DNA from: Candidatus Aminicenantes bacterium
GTDB lineage: Bacteria; Acidobacteriota; Aminicenantia; Aminicenantales; Aminicenantaceae
Length of the DNA: 64,000 nucleotides
Reading direction: 5' to 3'
NCBI GenBank assembly: GCA_011772475.1
Contig: WVZK01000086.1
Span: forward strand, 4,406 to 68,405
Of this stretch, positions 3,873 to 59,766 are shown piece after piece; the stretch's first letter is position 1, and the number at the start of each line of letters is the position of its first letter. The translations under genes and the position numbers were made by a program. Below the pieces are notes generated by a model that saw only the letters and a program-made list of their open reading frames with translations, did no database searches and was not told the origin of the DNA.

Positions 3873-4709
3873 CTATTTTAGTCCTAAAATAGCGGCAGCG
3901 TTTTCATAGAGGATTTTTCTTATAGATTCTTCAGCCAGGGGAAGTTCTTTTATAGCTTCAATATTGCTGTTGATTGTCTTTATTCCTGGCCAATCTGATC
4001 CGTAGACAAATTTCTCGATGTCTTTCTCCATCTCAGGAAAATAATTCAGCAGATTTTTAGGGGGCAGTCCTGAAATTTCCAGATAAATATTAGGATGAAG
4101 TCGAGATAGAAAAAATGCTTTTTCATACCAGAGACCTCTTCCGCTGTGAGCCATGAGGAGGAGAAGGTCAGGAAAATCGGAAGCCACGTCATCCAGATAG
4201 ATGGGATCAGCATACTTTACTTTTGAACCTTTAAACACAGAGGAGCCTGTATGGATGAGAACCGGTAGTCTATGCTCTTGGGCTATTTCATAAAGAGGAT
4301 AGAGAGAGCTATCATTTGGGTAGAAGTGATTGTAAGAAGGATAAAGTTTTATTCCTTTTACACCCATCTTGATGTATTTTCTAAGTTCCTGGGTTGGCTG
4401 ACTGACCAGTAAGGGATTAACAGTACAAAAGGGAAGGAAAGTGTCATTGCCCAGGCAAAAATCGATGACATATTCGTTAGAAACAACGCCAGTGGTAATA
4501 GGACTTATTTCAGGTAGGATCACGGCCTTTTCTATTTGATGGCTCTTGAGGTAGGCAGCAAACCTCTTCGGATCAATCATTTCCTCATAGCGTTCATAAT
4601 ACTCTGAATGTGCTTTTTTTTGGTAGGCGTGGATCCATTCATACCAGTGTTCTTTGAGACCGATGTGGACATGGAAATCGATGATTTTTATTTCATCTAG
4701 TTTTTTCAT
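3873..4709 (-). CDS. Metal-dependent amidohydrolase (TIM-barrel, amidohydrolase-2-like)
   Basis: IIDFHVHIG (HxH), LLLMAHSG and YGSDWP are the ligand motifs typical of PF04909-type hydrolases. Confidence 0.75.
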   Translation of the reverse strand: MKKLDEIKIIDFHVHIGLKEHWYEWIHAYQKKAHSEYYERYEEMIDPKRFAAYLKSHQIEKAVILPEISPITTGVVSNEYVIDFCLGNDTFLPFCTVNPLLVSQPTQELRKYIKMGVKGIKLYPSYNHFYPNDSSLYPLYEIAQEHRLPVLIHTGSSVFKGSKVKYADPIYLDDVASDFPDLLLLMAHSGRGLWYEKAFFLSRLHPNIYLEISGLPPKNLLNYFPEMEKDIEKFVYGSDWPGIKTINSNIEAIKELPLAEESIRKILYENAAAILGLK

Positions 4710-4865
4710 TCTCGTTAGAAGATAAAAAACATAAACTCATCTATTTCCAGAATCTCCCGTGACGTTCACTGTTTTGAGAAAAGACGAGGGGGATTATCAT
4801 TCTTTACGGGATAAGAAAAGATATAAGGCCAGGTGATGTTAGTAGATTTTGGTTTTTGATTTCCG

Positions 4866-5141
4866 TTATGTTTGCTCTTCTATTTTACTGGTGTTTTCTT
4901 CTTTTTTAGCTTTTAATTTTTCTTCGAGTTCTTTGATCTTGAGGATGAGTGTTTCTTTTTCTTTTTTCTTCATCCTTTTTAGAATTCTAACAACCACTCC
5001 CACAATACAAGCTATAATTAGTGTGTTGATAATAGCAGAAACTGAGTATGGCGACTTCATTTGCATTGTGAAAAGGATATCCAACTGCGCTAAGAAGGAT
5101 AGAATTACCAAAACAAGCAGTATCAAAACCCACCAGAGCAT
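4866..5141 (-). CDS. Small membrane protein with two TM segments and a K/E-rich coiled-coil tail
   Basis: MLWWVLILLVLVILSFLAQL ... IINTLIIACIVGVVVRIL, followed by KRMKKKEKETLILKIKELEEKLKAKKEE. GGAGAG lies 5 nt before the ATG. It has its own promoter at 5209-5236. The overlapping + ORF 4849..5163 is less protein-like. Confidence 0.5.
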   Translation of the reverse strand: MLWWVLILLVLVILSFLAQLDILFTMQMKSPYSVSAIINTLIIACIVGVVVRILKRMKKKEKETLILKIKELEEKLKAKKEENTSKIEEQT

Positions 5142-11033: not shown

Positions 11034-11043
11034 CTATTGTTCT

Positions 11044-11222
11044 TGTAGGGGCTCGATTTATCGTAGGGGCTCGATTTATTATACGTGTTTGATTCATCAA
11101 ACCCCCATTCTCTCTTATATTTTTATTTGTGGGGATTTGGTTCGTTGTAGGGGTTTGATTCATCAAACCTCCCTGCTTGCTAATATTTTTATTTGTAGGG
11201 GTTTGATTCATCAAACCCGCAC
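11044..11222 (+). repeat. REP-A cluster 1 (3 full and 3 half copies)
   Basis: TGTAGGGGTTTGATTCATCAAACC(C/T) occurs at 11146 and 11194 (49-bp spacing). There is a core copy at 11086-11106 and half copies at 11044, 11063 and 11128. Confidence 0.85.
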
Positions 11223-11257
11223 TTTTTATCTATATTTTTTTATAAATGAACGTTTTT

Positions 11258-19803: not shown

Positions 19804-21714
19804 ATGCGTACACGAGTTATATCGTTATTGGTAGTCGCATCCATCTTTATTTTTGGATGCGTTCCCCTGGAGGAAATGCCTCGCCTTATCCCTATGAAAG
19901 ATTTTTTCCGGAATCCGGAAAGTGCTGTATTTGGACTTTCTCCTGATGGAAGCCACCTCGCCTTTTTGAAGCCTTGGGAAAATCGACTAAATGTTCACGT
20001 GCAAAAAATAGGGGAAGATAAAATTACGCGAATCACCGGTGCAACGGAGAGAGATATTGCCGGCTATTATTGGGCGAATAATAATCGCATCGCTTATGTG
20101 CAGGATACTGCAGGTGACGAAAACTTCAGGTTATATGCAGTTAACATTGATGGGTCCGATCTAAAAGAACTCACGCCGTTTGAAAAAGTAAAGGTAGAGC
20201 TAATTGATAAGCTGAAGAATGACGATGAACACATGCTGATTTCGATGAACAAGCGTGATTCTCGTGTGTTTGATGTATATCGTATAAACATCAACTCGGG
20301 CAAGATGAATATGATAGCTCAAAATCCTGGGAATATCATGGGCTGGCATACCGACCATGACGGCAATCTGAGGATAGCCGTGACCACTGATGGTGTTAAC
20401 ACAAGTGTTCTTTACCGTGACTCCGAGAAGGATAAGTTCCAAACTTTGATCACAACCAATTTTAAAGAATCAATGTCGCCTTTGTTCTTCACGTTCGACA
20501 ATAAAAATCTTTACGTTGCTTCCAGCATAGGCCGAGATAAAACAGCTATATATGAATACGATATCAAAAATAAAAAACATGCAAAATTATTATATGAACA
20601 CCCTGAAGTTGATGTTGATGGTTTATTAAAATCGGATAAACGGAAGAAGATTACAGGCGTTACCTATATCGTCGATAAAAGACATTATCATTTCTTTGAT
20701 GATGAGAGAAAGACATTACAGGAAGGACTTGAGAAGCGGCTTCCAGGGTATGAAGTTGTGATCGTCAGCCGAAGTAAAGATGAGAGGAAAGTACTGGTTA
20801 GAACTTACAGCGACAGATCGCTTGGTTCCTATTATTACTTTAACCGAGACACGAATGACTTCAGAAAGCTCGTGGATATCAGTCCTTGGTTGAATGAAGA
20901 TGAGCTGGCTGAGATGAAGCCAATCACTTACAAATCACGGGATGGATTAACAATCCATGGATATTTAACAGTGCCCAAAGGCGCGAAACCTAAGAACCTT
21001 CCTGTTGTCGTCAATCCTCATGGCGGTCCCTGGGACAGAGATACATGGGGTTATAGGTCTCATGTTCAATTTCTTGCTAATCGAGGCTATGCTGTTTTAC
21101 AGATGAATTTCAGGACTTCTACAGGCTATGGACGTAAGTTCTGGGAAGCCGGCTTTAAACAATCGGGACTTGCCATCCAGGATGATATAACCGACGGAGT
21201 AAAATGGTTGATTAACCAAGGAATTGCCGACCCAAAACGTGTCGGAATTTACGGCGGTTCTTACGGAGGTTACTGCGTTCTAGCAGGGCTAGCATTCACT
21301 CCGGATTTATATGCTGCTGGTGTGGATTACGTCGGAATCTCTAGCTTTTTTACAATATTAAAGACCATTCCGCCTTACTGGGAACCTATGTTAGAGATGA
21401 TGTACGAAATGGTCGGCCATCCAGAAAAAGACAAGGAATTGTTCGAGAAAGTTTCGCCTCTATTTCACGCTGATAAAATTAAGGCTCCCTTGTTTGTCGC
21501 TCAAGGGGCCAACGATCCTAGGGTGAATAAACAGGAATCAGATCAGATTGTAGAAGCACTTAGAAAACGAGGTATTGATGTCGAATATATGGTAAAAGAA
21601 GATGAAGGGCATGGCTTCCGCAACGAGGAAAATAGGTTTGATTTCTATAGGGCAATGGAAAAATTCCTAGGCAAACACCTCGGAGGCAGAGTGGAGACAG
21701 AAACCAACGATTAA
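19804..21714 (+). CDS. S9 family serine peptidase (prolyl oligopeptidase/DPP family)
   Basis: AAAGGAGGAG SD. Lipoprotein-like signal (FIFGC). NPHGGPW, catalytic GGSYGGY, GANDPRV and EGHGF. Confidence 0.9.
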   Translation: MRTRVISLLVVASIFIFGCVPLEEMPRLIPMKDFFRNPESAVFGLSPDGSHLAFLKPWENRLNVHVQKIGEDKITRITGATERDIAGYYWANNNRIAYVQDTAGDENFRLYAVNIDGSDLKELTPFEKVKVELIDKLKNDDEHMLISMNKRDSRVFDVYRININSGKMNMIAQNPGNIMGWHTDHDGNLRIAVTTDGVNTSVLYRDSEKDKFQTLITTNFKESMSPLFFTFDNKNLYVASSIGRDKTAIYEYDIKNKKHAKLLYEHPEVDVDGLLKSDKRKKITGVTYIVDKRHYHFFDDERKTLQEGLEKRLPGYEVVIVSRSKDERKVLVRTYSDRSLGSYYYFNRDTNDFRKLVDISPWLNEDELAEMKPITYKSRDGLTIHGYLTVPKGAKPKNLPVVVNPHGGPWDRDTWGYRSHVQFLANRGYAVLQMNFRTSTGYGRKFWEAGFKQSGLAIQDDITDGVKWLINQGIADPKRVGIYGGSYGGYCVLAGLAFTPDLYAAGVDYVGISSFFTILKTIPPYWEPMLEMMYEMVGHPEKDKELFEKVSPLFHADKIKAPLFVAQGANDPRVNKQESDQIVEALRKRGIDVEYMVKEDEGHGFRNEENRFDFYRAMEKFLGKHLGGRVETETND

Positions 21715-21727
21715 ATCGATATTTTTT

Positions 21728-21898
21728 TGTAGTTTGATTTATTTGGAGGTTTTACTTGTAGGGGCTTGATTTATCAAACTCACCTTTTATTTATCTAAGC
21801 GGGATTGTTTTTGTGTAGGGGCTTGATTATTCAAACCCACCTTATATTTATCTAAAGATGATTGTTTATGTGTAGGGGTTTGATTCATCAAACCCACC
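21728..21898 (+). repeat. REP-A cluster 2: three full copies in a 57-bp-period tandem array plus one degenerate copy
   Basis: Copies start at 21757, 21814 and 21871. The inter-copy segments are similar to each other (TTWTATTTATCTAA...GATTGTTTWTG). Confidence 0.85.
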
Positions 21899-21980
21899 TT
21901 ATCCATTCTTTGGATTAAAAAACATACCAATATAATTGTGCTAAAATATAAAGTAACTCCTTATGGTAGGGAGATTATTA

Positions 21981-23027
21981 ATGAAAAAACAGAATAAACA
22001 TCCATTGGCATGGCTCAGTGGCAAAGATTATAAAACTGGCAAAAGCGACTCCAATCGTGCCTGCGAAGTTAGTCAGACCGATGTTTCTGATGCAAAACTC
22101 CTTGATGCCTATTCGCATGCTGTTATCTCAGTAGTCGAAGCAGTTGGCCCGGCCATTGTTAGTATCTCAATTGGCAGAGAGTCTCAGGAGCCTGAGTTTG
22201 ATCTGATTGGCGCAGGTTCTGGCTTTGTTATTACCCCAGATGGTTATATACTTACTAACAGCCATGTGGTCTCCAAAGCCAAGAAGTTGGAGACCATTTT
22301 TGTGGATAGAAAGAGGCTATCCACGACCGTCATAGGCAAGGATGATTCTACAGACCTGGCTGTGATTCAAGTCAATGCCTCAGGTTTGCCCTATGCTACG
22401 TTAGGGGATTCATCTGGATTGCGTGTTGGTCAGCTAGTGATTGCCATGGGTAATCCCTTTGGTTTTCAGTCCACTGTTTCCACTGGCGTGATCAGTGCTC
22501 TCGGGCGTTCGTTGCGCAGCCAGCAAGGACGTCTGATTGAAAACATTATCCAGCATACTGCTCCGCTTAATCCAGGAAACTCGGGTGGTCCGCTCTTGGA
22601 CTCAAGGGGGCGTGTTGTCGGAATCAACACGGCCATCATTCCTATGGCCCAGGGCATAGGATTTTCCATTCCTTCCGATACAGGGAAATGGGTGCTTACC
22701 CAGCTTATGACTCAAGGACGAGTACGTCGAAGCTACCTGGGAATAGTAGGCTATAAACGCCCCTTAGAAAGAAGGATTGTGCGCTTTCATAAGCTTAGCA
22801 AGGATCATGGAGTTGAAATAGTGTCCACTGATCCTAAAGGTCCAGCCAGGGAGGCGGATTTGCGCGTGGGCGATATTGTAGTTGAGGTCAATAATCAGGG
22901 TATGGGAAGTGTTGATGATATTTACCGTTTCTTGGCCGAATGGCCTATTGGTCGCCCGCTGACTGTTACTGTGCTTCGTGGTAAAGATCGGATTAATCTA
23001 GAGGTCGTTCCCACTGAGGCAAGTTAA
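21981..23027 (+). CDS. HtrA/DegP-type trypsin-like serine protease with PDZ domain
   Basis: ATG at 21981 after GGGAGA. TNSHV (His), DLAVIQ (Asp), GNSGGPLLD (Ser), and a C-terminal PDZ (GDIVVEVNNQ). Confidence 0.9.
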   Translation: MKKQNKHPLAWLSGKDYKTGKSDSNRACEVSQTDVSDAKLLDAYSHAVISVVEAVGPAIVSISIGRESQEPEFDLIGAGSGFVITPDGYILTNSHVVSKAKKLETIFVDRKRLSTTVIGKDDSTDLAVIQVNASGLPYATLGDSSGLRVGQLVIAMGNPFGFQSTVSTGVISALGRSLRSQQGRLIENIIQHTAPLNPGNSGGPLLDSRGRVVGINTAIIPMAQGIGFSIPSDTGKWVLTQLMTQGRVRRSYLGIVGYKRPLERRIVRFHKLSKDHGVEIVSTDPKGPAREADLRVGDIVVEVNNQGMGSVDDIYRFLAEWPIGRPLTVTVLRGKDRINLEVVPTEAS

Positions 23028-23103: not shown

Positions 23104-23131
23104 TGTAGAGGCTTGATTTATCAAGCCCACC
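23104..23131 (+). repeat. REP-A single copy
   Basis: TGTAGAGGCTTGATTTATCAAGCCCACC. Both arms carry the C/G variant. Confidence 0.8.
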
Positions 23132-27719: not shown

Positions 27720-27806
27720 AAAAGGGGACAGGCTAGTTTTTCGAAAATTTCGTAGGGGTTTGATTTATCAAACCCGCACATTAAAAAAGTAGCCTGTCCC
27801 TTTTTT
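27720..27806 (+). terminator. A-tract / 11-bp stem / T-tract terminator whose loop holds a REP-A copy
   Basis: GGGACAGGCTA (27725-27735) pairs with TAGCCTGTCCC (27790-27800), followed by T6. The 54-nt loop contains REP-A 27751-27779. Confidence 0.55.
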
Positions 27807-27946
27807 CTTAGACTTTTAGGGGCTTGATTCATCGTAGGGGCTTGATTTATCAAGCCCACCTTATTTAATATGGTTACAAATACCTGCTTTGATAAATCAA
27901 ACCCCTACAAGATAATTAGAGGGATTTGAGAAATCAAATCCCTTTA
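27751..27946. repeat. REP-A cluster 4 (forward copies 27751 and 27834, half copy 27816, reverse copy 27886-27909, variant palindrome 27919-27946)
   Basis: Read directly. 27834-27860 (forward) and 27886-27909 (reverse) form an inverted doublet with a 25-bp spacer. Confidence 0.85.
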
Positions 27947-35851: not shown

Positions 35852-35879
35852 TGTAGGGGTTTGATTTATCAAACCCACA
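35852..35879 (+). repeat. REP-A single copy
   Basis: TGTAGGGGTTTGATTTATCAAACCCACA in a divergent intergenic gap. Confidence 0.8.
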
Positions 35880-38472: not shown

Positions 38473-38567
38473 TGTAGGGGTTTGATTCCTCAAACCCACC
38501 TTTTTAATTCTAAAAATACGCTGGTTAAATTTACCAATTTGTAGGGGTTTGATTCCTCAAACCCACA
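38473..38567 (+). repeat. REP-A cluster 6, two copies (loop variant TTCC)
   Basis: TGTAGGGGTTTGATTCCTCAAACCCAC occurs at 38473 and 38540, between the convergent ptrB and trkH. Confidence 0.85.
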
Positions 38568-46444: not shown

Positions 46445-46463
46445 ATCTTGCAGGGAATCGATC

Positions 46464-48048: not shown

Positions 48049-48134
48049 TGTAGGGGTTTGATTCATCAAATCAACGCTTTTTATTGTGCAGGGATTTGAT
48101 TTGTTTGTAGGGGTTTGATTCATCAAACCCGCAC
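48049..48134 (+). repeat. REP-A cluster 7 (two full copies and one half copy)
   Basis: Full copies at 48049 and 48106, and a half copy at 48086. Confidence 0.85.
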
Positions 48135-49222: not shown

Positions 49223-49249
49223 TGTAGGGATTTGATTCACCAAAACTGC
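49223..49249 (+). repeat. REP-A degenerate copy
   Basis: TGTAGGGATTTGATTCACCAAAACTGC. Confidence 0.55.
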
Positions 49250-59645: not shown

Positions 59646-59766
59646 TGTAGGGGCTTGATTCATCAAGTCCACCTTATATATTTGTTTTTTTTCAAAATGT
59701 GGGTTTGATAAATCAAACCCCTACTCAACCTGAATCAAGCTCTTATGCATGAATCAAGCCTCTACA
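59646..59766. repeat. REP-A cluster 9 (forward 59646-59673, reverse 59698-59724, reverse half copies 59730-59742 and 59751-59766)
   Basis: Read directly. The forward/reverse pair forms an inverted doublet with a 24-bp spacer. Confidence 0.85.

What the first reader, a model, noticed from the sequence alone, without database searches (positions are those of the whole stretch)
11044..11222. Dense GTAG-headed palindromic repeat family (REP-like, here REP-A) occupying 9 intergenic gaps of this window
- **Consensus read off the copies:** a T-rich lead, then TGTAGGGG(T/C)TTGAT(T/C)(C/T)ATCAA(A/G)CCC(A/G)C(A/C)C, often continuing CTTATAT. The core GGG(T/C)TTGAT-NN-ATCAA(A/G)CCC is a hairpin with 9-bp arms.
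- **Copy number and loci:** I count roughly 17 full and 8 half copies. They lie at 11044-11222, 21728-21898, 23104-23131, 27751-27946, 35852-35879, 38473-38567, 48049-48134, 49223-49249 and 59646-59766.
- **Placement:** All copies are outside confident CDSs. Both orientations occur. They are found in convergent, tandem and divergent gaps.
- **Structure is conserved:** Arm variants co-vary (GGGGCTTGAT...ATCAAGCCC at 23104 and 27834, versus GGGGTTTGAT...ATCAAACCC). This suggests the structure is maintained.
- **Link to known biology:** A GTAG tetranucleotide at the 5' side of the palindrome is the feature described for REPs mobilised by RAYT (IS200/IS605-type Y1) transposases. No such gene lies in this window.
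- **Density:** About one locus per 7 kb is very high.
Basis: partly seen in the sequence, partly recalled or inferred. Interest (0 to 1): 0.6.

Follow-up and report, generated by a model that had tools for sequence, protein, structure and literature searches.

The report
GTAG-tagged REP hairpin repeats, Aminicenantes
The repeats are real and belong to a well-known class, the GTAG-tagged REP hairpins that RAYT transposases recognise; here they form a dense family in an uncultured Aminicenantes bacterium, so this is an ordinary new member, not a new kind of element.

Summary
I count 16-18 full and about 6 half copies of GTAG-GGGYTTGAT-TY-ATCAARCCC in the nine stated intergenic gaps (17 palindromes found, 0.01 expected by chance).

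- **Scaffold.** The form GTAG + GGG-NNNN-AT-TY-AT-NNNN-CCC recurs in MAGs labelled from more than 20 phyla. There it flanks small Y1/HUH transposase genes in inverted orientation. The only PDB match of one such transposase is E. coli TnpAREP, and 88 of its 120 closest homologues encode REP-derived peptides at their ends.
- **Prior literature.** This architecture is already described for TnpAY1 subclass 2.4 (PMC6006769) and the GTAG superfamily (PMC3733652). It includes the three G-C foot pairs, the 'double foot', and REPs in frame inside the transposase gene.
- **Close relatives (86-89% nt).** They keep the REPs at the same gaps but with different unit numbers. Orthologous copies swap T-A for C-G in the stem.
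- **Distant relatives.** They showed no such hairpin in 430 kb.
- **Reading.** An old invasion, followed by local expansion and contraction of arrays.

Verdict: new member of a known kind, modest interest.

The parts
11044..11222 (+). REP cluster 1 in the convergent gap 11034-11257. It holds two exact 5'-half copies (11045-11061, 11063-11079), a full copy with a degenerate head (11081-11104), and full copies at 11147-11170 and 11195-11218 with the tail GCAC.
21728..21898 (+). Tandem (head-to-tail) array of three units with a 57-bp period (21758, 21815, 21872). The spacers between units are homologous to each other. It lies between the S9 peptidase stop (21714) and the HtrA-like start (21981).
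   Evidence: The syntenic relative L127 has a 43-nt gap here.
23105..23128 (+). Single copy of the CTTG/CAAG stem variant, downstream of the HtrA-like gene.
27752..27775 (+). Single copy nested in the loop of a long terminator-like hairpin (27725-27735 pairs with 27790-27800, then a T run).
   Evidence: (fold -26.1 kcal/mol, z -9.2)
27816..27908 (.). A half copy (27816-27832, +), a full copy (27834-27857, +) and an inverted full copy (27885-27908, -). Together they form a head-outside doublet that can fold as one long hairpin.
35853..35876 (+). Single perfect copy in a divergent gap.
38474..38564 (+). Two units with a 67-bp period that fill the 104-nt convergent gap between the prolyl oligopeptidase and TrkH. 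Both carry the same rare A-to-C change (ATC to CTC). Relatives have one unit here, so this is a recent local duplication.
48050..48130 (+). A full copy (48050), a half copy (48088) and a full copy (48107) in a divergent gap. Relatives have one unit at the same place.
49224..49247 (+). Degenerate single copy between DUF362 and the LVIVD gene. Relatives carry 2-3 units here, so the window copy looks like the product of a deletion between two direct units.
59647..59765 (.). A full + copy (59647-59670), an inverted full copy (59701-59724, -) and a half copy (59749-59765, -) in a divergent gap.
46445..46463 (+). Remnant half copy (TGCAGGGAATCGATC) that makes up the whole 19-nt PhoU|permease gap. 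The same gap in relatives is 90-130 nt with 1-2 full REPs.

Best explanation
REP-A is a family of GTAG-tagged repetitive extragenic palindromes. Each unit has the form GTAG + GGGYTTGAT-TY-ATCAARCCC + a tail (A/G)C(A/C)(C/T)TT. It is often preceded by 1-3 degenerate copies of its own 5' arm.

**Proposed mechanism**
- A RAYT/TnpAREP-type HUH-Y1 enzyme of the kind described as TnpAY1 subclass 2.4 recognises the single-stranded hairpin. It reads the hairpin's shape and the GTAG foot, and cuts and rejoins DNA there. That seeded copies in intergenic DNA of an ancestor of this Aminicenantes lineage. This step is inferred.
- Since then the copies have stayed at the same gaps. The arrays grow and shrink by local tandem duplication and by deletion between direct units. 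This is shown by comparison with relatives.
- The stem is kept paired through T-A to C-G swaps. This is shown.
- In the GTAG orientation the hairpin is followed by a T run, so copies downstream of genes may also act as weak terminators or mRNA 3' stabilisers. This is inferred.
For: **Sequence and structure**
- Motif counts are far above chance.
- The unit folds as a 9-bp hairpin, z -4 to -5.
- In 795 kb of loci from other genomes, 177 of 195 matches to GTAGGGG-N4-AT-N2-AT-N4-CCC have perfectly complementary N4. The chance rate is 1 in 256. There are 17 different stems, GTAG is essentially obligatory, and the loops are TT, TC or TA.

**Link to RAYT genes in other genomes**
- Y1 transposase genes are flanked by these hairpins in inverted orientation with GTAG outside. 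The window's own YTTG stem class sits at the 3' side in L100, L117/118, L121 and L226/227.
- These proteins match NF047646 REP_Tyr_transpos and PF01797.
- The only PDB hit of the L100 protein is 4ER8, TnpAREP.
- The residues that contact GTAG in E. coli (W, Q, then E at +6, H at +7, R at +10) are 90-100% conserved (invariant or nearly so) in alignment A2 (residue roles from PMC6006769).
- 88 of 120 homologues carry REP-derived peptides at their ends, such as VGVRFIEP and GSDESDPY.

**Abundance and comparison with relatives**
- 249 contigs of the source run X1 carry the core, some at the same ~20x depth as the window but with other flanks.
- Distant relatives show 0 hairpins in 430 kb. The syntenic S9|HtrA gap is 43 nt in L127 against 267 nt in the window.
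- Close relatives show unit-number polymorphism and compensatory stem swaps at orthologous copies.
- Four copies score as terminator-like sites.
Against: - There is no RAYT in the window. The rest of the genome could not be searched.
- None of the compared REP gaps lacks REP sequence in relatives at 86-89% identity. No clearly new insertion was seen, and all variation found can be explained by local duplication or deletion without any transposase.
- Most copies are singletons or head-to-tail arrays. They are not the inverted doublets that dominate most described families.
- The strong + strand bias in the window has no confirmed explanation. REP orientation did not follow GC skew across 83 loci.
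Confidence: 0.8

Rival explanations
1. These are relic or domesticated REPs. The lineage has lost its RAYT. The copies persist because they serve the host, for example as terminators, mRNA 3' stabilisers or protein-binding sites. They change only by recombination, slippage and gene conversion.
For: - REP gaps are positionally conserved among relatives, and only the number of units changes.
- The hairpin plus T run scores as terminator-like.
- Six of nine loci lie downstream of a + strand gene in the sense orientation.
- REP-bearing genomes without RAYT are documented (PMC6006769).
Against: - The GTAG foot is not needed for a terminator, yet it is the best conserved part.
- Three loci sit in divergent gaps, where nothing needs terminating on that strand.
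- In convergent gaps only one of the two genes gets the T run.
- Whether the genome has a RAYT is simply unknown.
Confidence: 0.15
2. REP-A is a non-autonomous element of a different transposase, for example an IS200/IS605 TnpA (a PATE-like element) or an unrelated enzyme, and not of a RAYT.
For: IS200/IS605 enzymes also use hairpins on single-stranded DNA. No transposase of any kind was found beside the window copies.
Against: - Unbiased clustering of 2045 ORFs around 116 motif-bearing loci gave only one motif-adjacent recurrent family, and it is the RAYT-like one. The two larger clusters were ABC ATPase-type and signalling-type proteins not placed at the motif.
- The GTAG foot and three G-C foot pairs are the RAYT-type signature (PMC6006769).
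- The units have no distinct left and right ends.
Confidence: 0.03
3. The repeats are degenerate mini-CRISPR arrays or an assembly artefact.
For: The periods of 48-67 bp resemble CRISPR geometry.
Against: - The spacers between units are homologous to each other.
- Arrays have at most three units.
- The same units occur singly at many loci and in many genomes.
- An independent Logan assembly reproduces the junctions.
Confidence: 0.01

Closest known systems
GTAG-tagged REP superfamily (Di Nocera, De Gregorio & Rocco 2013, PMC3733652)
   Same: - A GTAG tag at one end of a 6-13 bp stem.
- A very short TY loop.
- Intergenic location, mainly in unidirectional and convergent gaps.
- Sub-families with complementary stem changes.
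- Singletons, dimers and tandem clusters.
- Occasional insertion inside other palindromes.
   Different: - The host is Aminicenantes, which the paper's text does not name among the phyla hosting GTAG repeats.
[quoted passage not shown]
- Full copies are preceded by 18-19 nt copies of the 5' arm. A term search of that paper's text ('half', 'truncated') found no mention of such half copies.
- I could not see the paper's Figure 1, so I cannot say whether this stem matches one of its 24 families.
REPs of TnpAY1 subclass 2.4 REPtrons (Quentin, Siguier, Chandler & Fichant 2018, PMC6006769)
   Same: - Three G-C pairs at the foot of the stem.
- 'Double foot' copies (GTAG...CTAC) in several loci.
[quoted passage not shown]
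- Patchy distribution over many phyla.
- More than one stem variant flanking a single gene.
   Different: I did not place these RAYTs in that paper's tree, so the subclass assignment rests on shared features only. The transposases here are small (about 142-200 aa). The window's genome has no RAYT shown.
E. coli REP/BIME with TnpAREP (PDB 4ER8)
   Same: - A GTAG foot recognised by conserved W/Q/E/H/R residues.
- An HUH-Y1 enzyme.
- REPs flank the gene in inverted orientation.
- REPs lie downstream of genes.
   Different: The E. coli stems are longer, GC-rich and bulged, and are arranged mostly as alternating inverted pairs (BIMEs). The protein match is weak (E = 3e-8, 37 bits).
REPINs (Bertels & Rainey 2011, PMC3116915)
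   Same: Two loci (27834/27908 and 59647/59724) are inverted doublets with 24-30 nt spacers that fold as one long hairpin.
   Different: Only 2 of 9 loci are doublets. The commonest unit here is a single REP or a direct tandem.

Membership tests
GTAG-tagged REP | Short imperfect palindrome (20-40 bp) able to form a stem-loop | tested here: met
   9-bp arms with a 2-nt spacer. 92.6% of cells are paired, against 24-51% when one arm is slid out of register. DNA folds are -7.3 to -8.4 kcal/mol, z -4 to -5.
GTAG-tagged REP | GT[AG]G tetranucleotide at the 5' foot of the hairpin | tested here: met
   In alignment A1, T22 and A23 of the GTAG are invariant and G21 and G24 are at least 90% conserved. 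Across the loci, 177 scaffold hairpins carry GTAG, against 0-1 for six control heads.
GTAG-tagged REP | High copy number, dispersed in the intergenic DNA of the genome | tested here: inconclusive
   - 18 full copies lie in 9 of the window's gaps, about 1 per 3.6 kb.
- 249 contigs of the source run carry the core, some at the genome's own ~20x depth.
GTAG-tagged REP / REPtron | A RAYT (TnpAREP) gene in the same genome, flanked by the same REPs | not testable with these tools
- In other genomes the feature is met for this REP class: L100, L117/118, L121 and L226/227.
- 88 of 120 RAYT homologues have REP-derived termini.
TnpAY1 subclass 2.4-type REP | Three consecutive G-C pairs at the stem foot; 'double foot' variants; REPs in frame inside tnpAREP | tested here: met
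   - The GGG...CCC foot is present in nearly all copies.
- Double-foot copies occur in L005, L018, L019, L036, L080, L092 and L094.
- In-frame REPs occur inside the L022 and L094 genes.
- In the window the second foot is only a degenerate GCAC or ACCT.
REPIN | The replicating unit is two REPs in inverted orientation | tested here: not met
   Only 2 of 9 loci are inverted doublets. 16 of 18 full copies point the same way.
CRISPR array | Regular repeats separated by unique spacers | tested here: not met
   Inter-unit segments are homologous to each other. There are at most three units per locus. Cas genes were not searched for, but none of the Pfam-scanned genes flanking the REP loci is Cas-like.
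Intrinsic terminator (function, not family) | GC-containing hairpin followed at once by a T run, at the 3' end of a transcript | tested here: inconclusive
   Four copies are among the top terminator-like sites in 20-40 kb. However, the T run starts 2-3 nt after a weak stem, and three loci are in divergent gaps. No RNA data exist.

The most novel reading that the evidence does not exclude
One REP scaffold and its small RAYT clade have spread horizontally across very distant lineages. Exact 24-mers occur in MAGs labelled from more than 20 phyla, in genomes of 31-63% G+C. These include CPR bacteria, one archaeal bin and one cultured betaproteobacterium. That would contrast with the prevailing view that REP-RAYT systems are mostly inherited vertically. 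In Aminicenantes the family would then have shifted to growth by strand-coherent tandem arrays with 5'-arm 'leader' copies. That pattern could reflect insertion or copying tied to the direction of replication.
Probability: 0.3. Interest if true: 0.5.

Novelty: new member of a known kind. Interest (0 to 1): 0.3.

Why it matters
- **Annotation.** It adds a dense and well-delimited REP family for a phylum with no cultured members. REP-derived peptides such as VGVRFIEP and GSDESDPY contaminate called ORFs, and REP arrays break assemblies at the 24-nt core.
- **Evolutionary timing.** The comparison with relatives gives a rare time-ordered picture. The family is absent in distant relatives and fixed in position among close ones. 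Its arrays grow and shrink locally, and its stem pairs swap with compensation.
- **A testable question.** The scaffold has only four free stem positions, and a single RAYT gene is flanked by different stems. This makes a clean case for testing how a RAYT reads hairpin shape as against hairpin sequence.
- **Limit.** None of this changes the known framework.

Tried and rejected
No whole-assembly search for a RAYT or for a copy count was possible.

**Searches that found nothing useful**
- Rfam at gathering thresholds gave no family in the window.
- No RNA runs hold the window, so 3'-end mapping is impossible.
- The look-up of encoding contigs with the longest prolyl-oligopeptidase ORF found nothing on record. 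The ORF start was probably too long.
- The window's own genome was not among the 116 genome-contig loci.
- Look-ups of RAYT homologues P0120 and P0116, chosen as possibly from this MAG, led to other organisms: 51% G+C, and a contig encoding Por_Secre_tail-domain proteins.

**Tests with negative results**
- Replication-strand hypothesis for the + bias: across 83 loci the GTAG strand follows GC skew in 47 (p = 0.27), so it is not supported.
- Other recurrent neighbour genes: clustering 2045 ORFs gave only one motif-adjacent family, the RAYT-like one. The two larger clusters were ABC ATPase-type and signalling-type proteins not placed at the motif.

**Readings considered and rejected**
- CRISPR: the spacers are homologous to each other.
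- FNR/CRP box: that site is TTGAT-N4-ATCAA, whereas the spacing here is N2. This comparison is from memory.
- attC: no R'/R'' cores. This comparison is also from memory.

Full report
**1. The observation**

The stretch 11044-11222 reads as follows: two exact 5'-half copies (GTAGGGGCTCGATTTAT), one full copy with a degenerate head, and two full copies GTAGGGGTTTGATTCATCAAACC(T/C).

- Over the window, the palindrome GGGYTTGATNNATCAARCCC (up to 2 mismatches) occurs 17 times against 0.01 expected.
- The asymmetric head TGTAGGGGYTYGAT occurs 23 times against 1.23 expected, 19 on + and 4 on -.
- My census gives 18 full copies, two of them degenerate. Sixteen are on + and two on -.
- The ORF map and Pfam scans place every copy between supported genes.
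- An alignment of 18 copies shows that the GTAG, the stem and a tail (A/G)C(A/C)(C/T)TT are conserved.
- Only one stem pair varies inside the window: T-A 13 times, C-G 3 times, mismatched twice.
- The single unit folds as a hairpin (-7.3 to -8.4 kcal/mol, z about -4 to -5). The two inverted doublets can fold as long hairpins. The copy at 27752 sits in the loop of a strong terminator-like hairpin.

**2. Not an artefact, and not confined to the window**

- The likely source run X1 holds 88% of the sampled words.
- Its independently built Logan contigs cover 21384-21898 with one mismatch, that is, from the gene into the full three-unit array. Other contigs meet inside the copy at 23105.
- On the single copy at 35853, 249 X1 contigs match at 95% or better. 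Summed depth rises from about 20 to about 11,000. Contigs at the window's own depth (about 20x) continue into other flanks.
- Sediment and mangrove runs that hold only relatives show the same pile-up.

**3. What the element is**

About 0.3 chance matches would be expected in 596 Gb by my own estimate. The hits are in MAGs labelled Aminicenantes (many), Omnitrophota, Elusimicrobia, Chloroflexota, Planctomycetes, Patescibacteria, Thermodesulfobacteriota, WOR-3, Zixibacteria, an Altiarchaeota bin, and the isolate Formosimonas limnophila. Their G+C ranges from 31 to 63%.

Reading the flanks shows a common scaffold: GTAG GGG-NNNN-AT-(TY)-AT-NNNN-CCC.
- In 795 kb of these loci, 177 of 195 scaffold matches have perfectly complementary NNNN. 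There are 17 different stems.
- GTAG is essentially the only head.
- The cross-phylum 'identity' is thus largely a very constrained scaffold with four free stem positions.

**4. The link to RAYT**

- Clustering all 2045 ORFs of the loci gave one small, motif-adjacent family. It has an HUH motif and the sequence WQRNYYEHxIRN.
- It matches NF047646 'REP-associated tyrosine transposase' (67 bits, below the curated cut-off of 80) and Pfam Y1_Tnp.
- The only PDB relative of the L100 protein is E. coli TnpAREP, 4ER8.
- In L100 the gene (4543-4974) lies between a + strand REP (4487-4510) and a - strand REP of the window's TTTG class (4981-5004), with GTAG outside.
- The same layout, with a CTTG-class REP at the 3' end, is seen in L117/L118, L121 and L226/L227.
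- The L100 protein has 4542 homologues at E no greater than 1e-10.
- Of the best 120, 72 begin with a VGxRFIE-like peptide. This is the translation of GTAGGGGTTCGATTCATCGAACCC. Sixty-four end with a GSD(E/K)SDPY-like peptide, the translation of GGGTCGGATGAATCCGACCCCTAC. In all, 88 show some REP-derived end.
- The residues reported to contact GTAG in E. coli TnpAREP (W94, Q95, E100, H101, R104) align with W104, Q105, E110, H111 and R114, which are invariant or at least 90% conserved in alignment A2.
- No RAYT is present in the window or in the loci of close relatives that I hold.

**5. Comparison with the literature**

- Di Nocera et al. (PMC3733652) define the GTAG superfamily. Their description includes TY loops, complementary stem sub-families, tandem reiteration, and insertion into other palindromes. 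They found head-to-tail dimers rare.
- Quentin et al. (PMC6006769) describe TnpAY1 subclass 2.4: REPs with three G-C foot pairs, 'double foot' copies, REPs inserted in frame inside tnpAREP between HuH and Y, and a patchwork distribution over phyla consistent with horizontal transfer.
- I saw all of these features: double-foot copies in seven loci, and in-frame REPs in the L022 and L094 genes.
- The features that looked surprising are therefore already described.

**6. History in this lineage**

The window's contig is about 69 kb. The 90% cluster of its TrkH protein includes a member named Candidatus Aminicenantes.

*Distant relatives.*
- Eighty metagenome loci encode HtrA-like proteins 59-69% identical to the window's.
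- They contain no scaffold hairpin in 430 kb, against 0.23 per kb in the window.
- In the one syntenic locus (L127; M14 76%, S9 77% identical), the S9|HtrA gap is 43 nt, against 267 nt with three REP units in the window.

*Close relatives.* Syntenic loci L215-L225 are 85-89% identical at the nucleotide level; L209-L214 come from the 90% TrkH protein cluster. All carry REPs at the same gaps, but with different numbers of units.

| Gap | Window | Close relatives |
|---|---|---|
| TrkH\|POP | 2 units, sharing a rare A-to-C change | 1 unit |
| PhoU\|permease | 19-nt remnant half copy | 90-130 nt with 1-2 full units |
| DUF362\|LVIVD | 1 degenerate unit | 2-3 units |

Orthologous copies differ by paired T-A to C-G swaps at three sites. 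Apart from these swaps and loop changes, the cores mostly stay intact, while flanking intergenic DNA diverges.

I read this as follows. The invasion came after the split from the distant relatives and before the split of the close group. It was followed by local duplication and deletion. No clearly new insertion site was seen within the close group.

**7. Function**

- Four copies rank among the top terminator-like sites in 20-40 kb.
- Six of nine loci lie downstream of a + strand gene in the sense orientation.
- Three loci are in divergent gaps, where a terminator has no obvious use.
- There are no RNA data.
- A terminator or mRNA-stabiliser role is therefore plausible for some copies but unproven.

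**8. Unexplained**

- Copy orientation is regionally coherent. In the window it is 16 on + against 2 on -. By my tally, 12 of 13 neighbouring clusters within loci agree.
- The window has positive GC skew throughout.
- However, across 83 loci the orientation did not follow skew (47 of 83, p = 0.27).
- The 18-19 nt 5'-arm 'leader' copies recur in other Aminicenantes-type MAGs. I have no tested mechanism for them.

**9. Verdict**

This is a real and dense GTAG-tagged REP family in Aminicenantes, of the RAYT subclass-2.4 type. It is a new member of a known kind. I re-derived that conclusion independently and added the comparison with relatives.

Noticed in passing
window 11044-59766; loci L009, L033, L042, L104, L109: REP orientation is regionally coherent. 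In the window it is 16 on + against 2 on -. By my tally, 12 of 13 neighbouring clusters within single loci agree. It is not explained by gene orientation, and a GC-skew test over 83 loci was negative.
   Followed up: partly
window 11045-11079, 27816-27832, 48088-48104, 59749-59765; L016, L021, L068, L033: Full copies are preceded by 1-3 direct copies of the 5' arm plus loop (GTAGGGGCTTGATTYATCT, 18-19 nt). No mention of such half copies turned up in term searches of PMC3733652 or in the sections I read of PMC6006769.
   Followed up: partly
L022 4828-4934; L094 598-625: REP hairpins lie in frame inside RAYT-like genes, between the HUH and Tyr motifs. Examples are the peptides VVGVSFMKPE...KKGLINQTPT. 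This is already described for TnpAY1 subclass 2.4.
   Followed up: yes
window 46445-46463: The whole 19-nt PhoU|permease gap is a remnant half copy. Relatives have 90-130 nt with full REPs, so this array appears to have contracted in the window's lineage.
   Followed up: yes
window 21963-21983: The HtrA-like gene most likely starts at 21981 and not at the first ATG, 21963. The 21981 product is the one on record, and it matches the relative's start.
   Followed up: partly
L001, L003, L016, L021, L037, L049, L053, L071, L109 (CAYUXD01); L004, L098, L104, L115 (CAYTBG01): Two MAGs labelled 'uncultured Eubacteriales' carry the Aminicenantes-type REP with the same ACCTTAT tail and half-copy leaders, at about 41-44% G+C. 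Their taxonomic label may be wrong.
   Followed up: no
window 27725-27800; L004 88-98, L009 5052-5062, L037 3297-3307 and 4186-4196, L058 224-234: The terminator stem GGGACAGGCTA...TAGCCTGTCCC that encloses a REP in the window recurs next to REPs in other MAGs that carry the Aminicenantes-type REP. It may itself be a repeated element.
   Followed up: partly
L202-L208 (IMG/VR contigs): Seven putative viral contigs contain an exact copy of the 24-nt motif. These could be a route for horizontal spread, or they could be misclassified cellular contigs.
   Followed up: no
L221 13863-16949, L222 10852-13938: Some close relatives carry an extra 1028-aa Ser/Thr kinase-TPR gene directly after the MacB-like permease. 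The window lacks it at that position.
   Followed up: no
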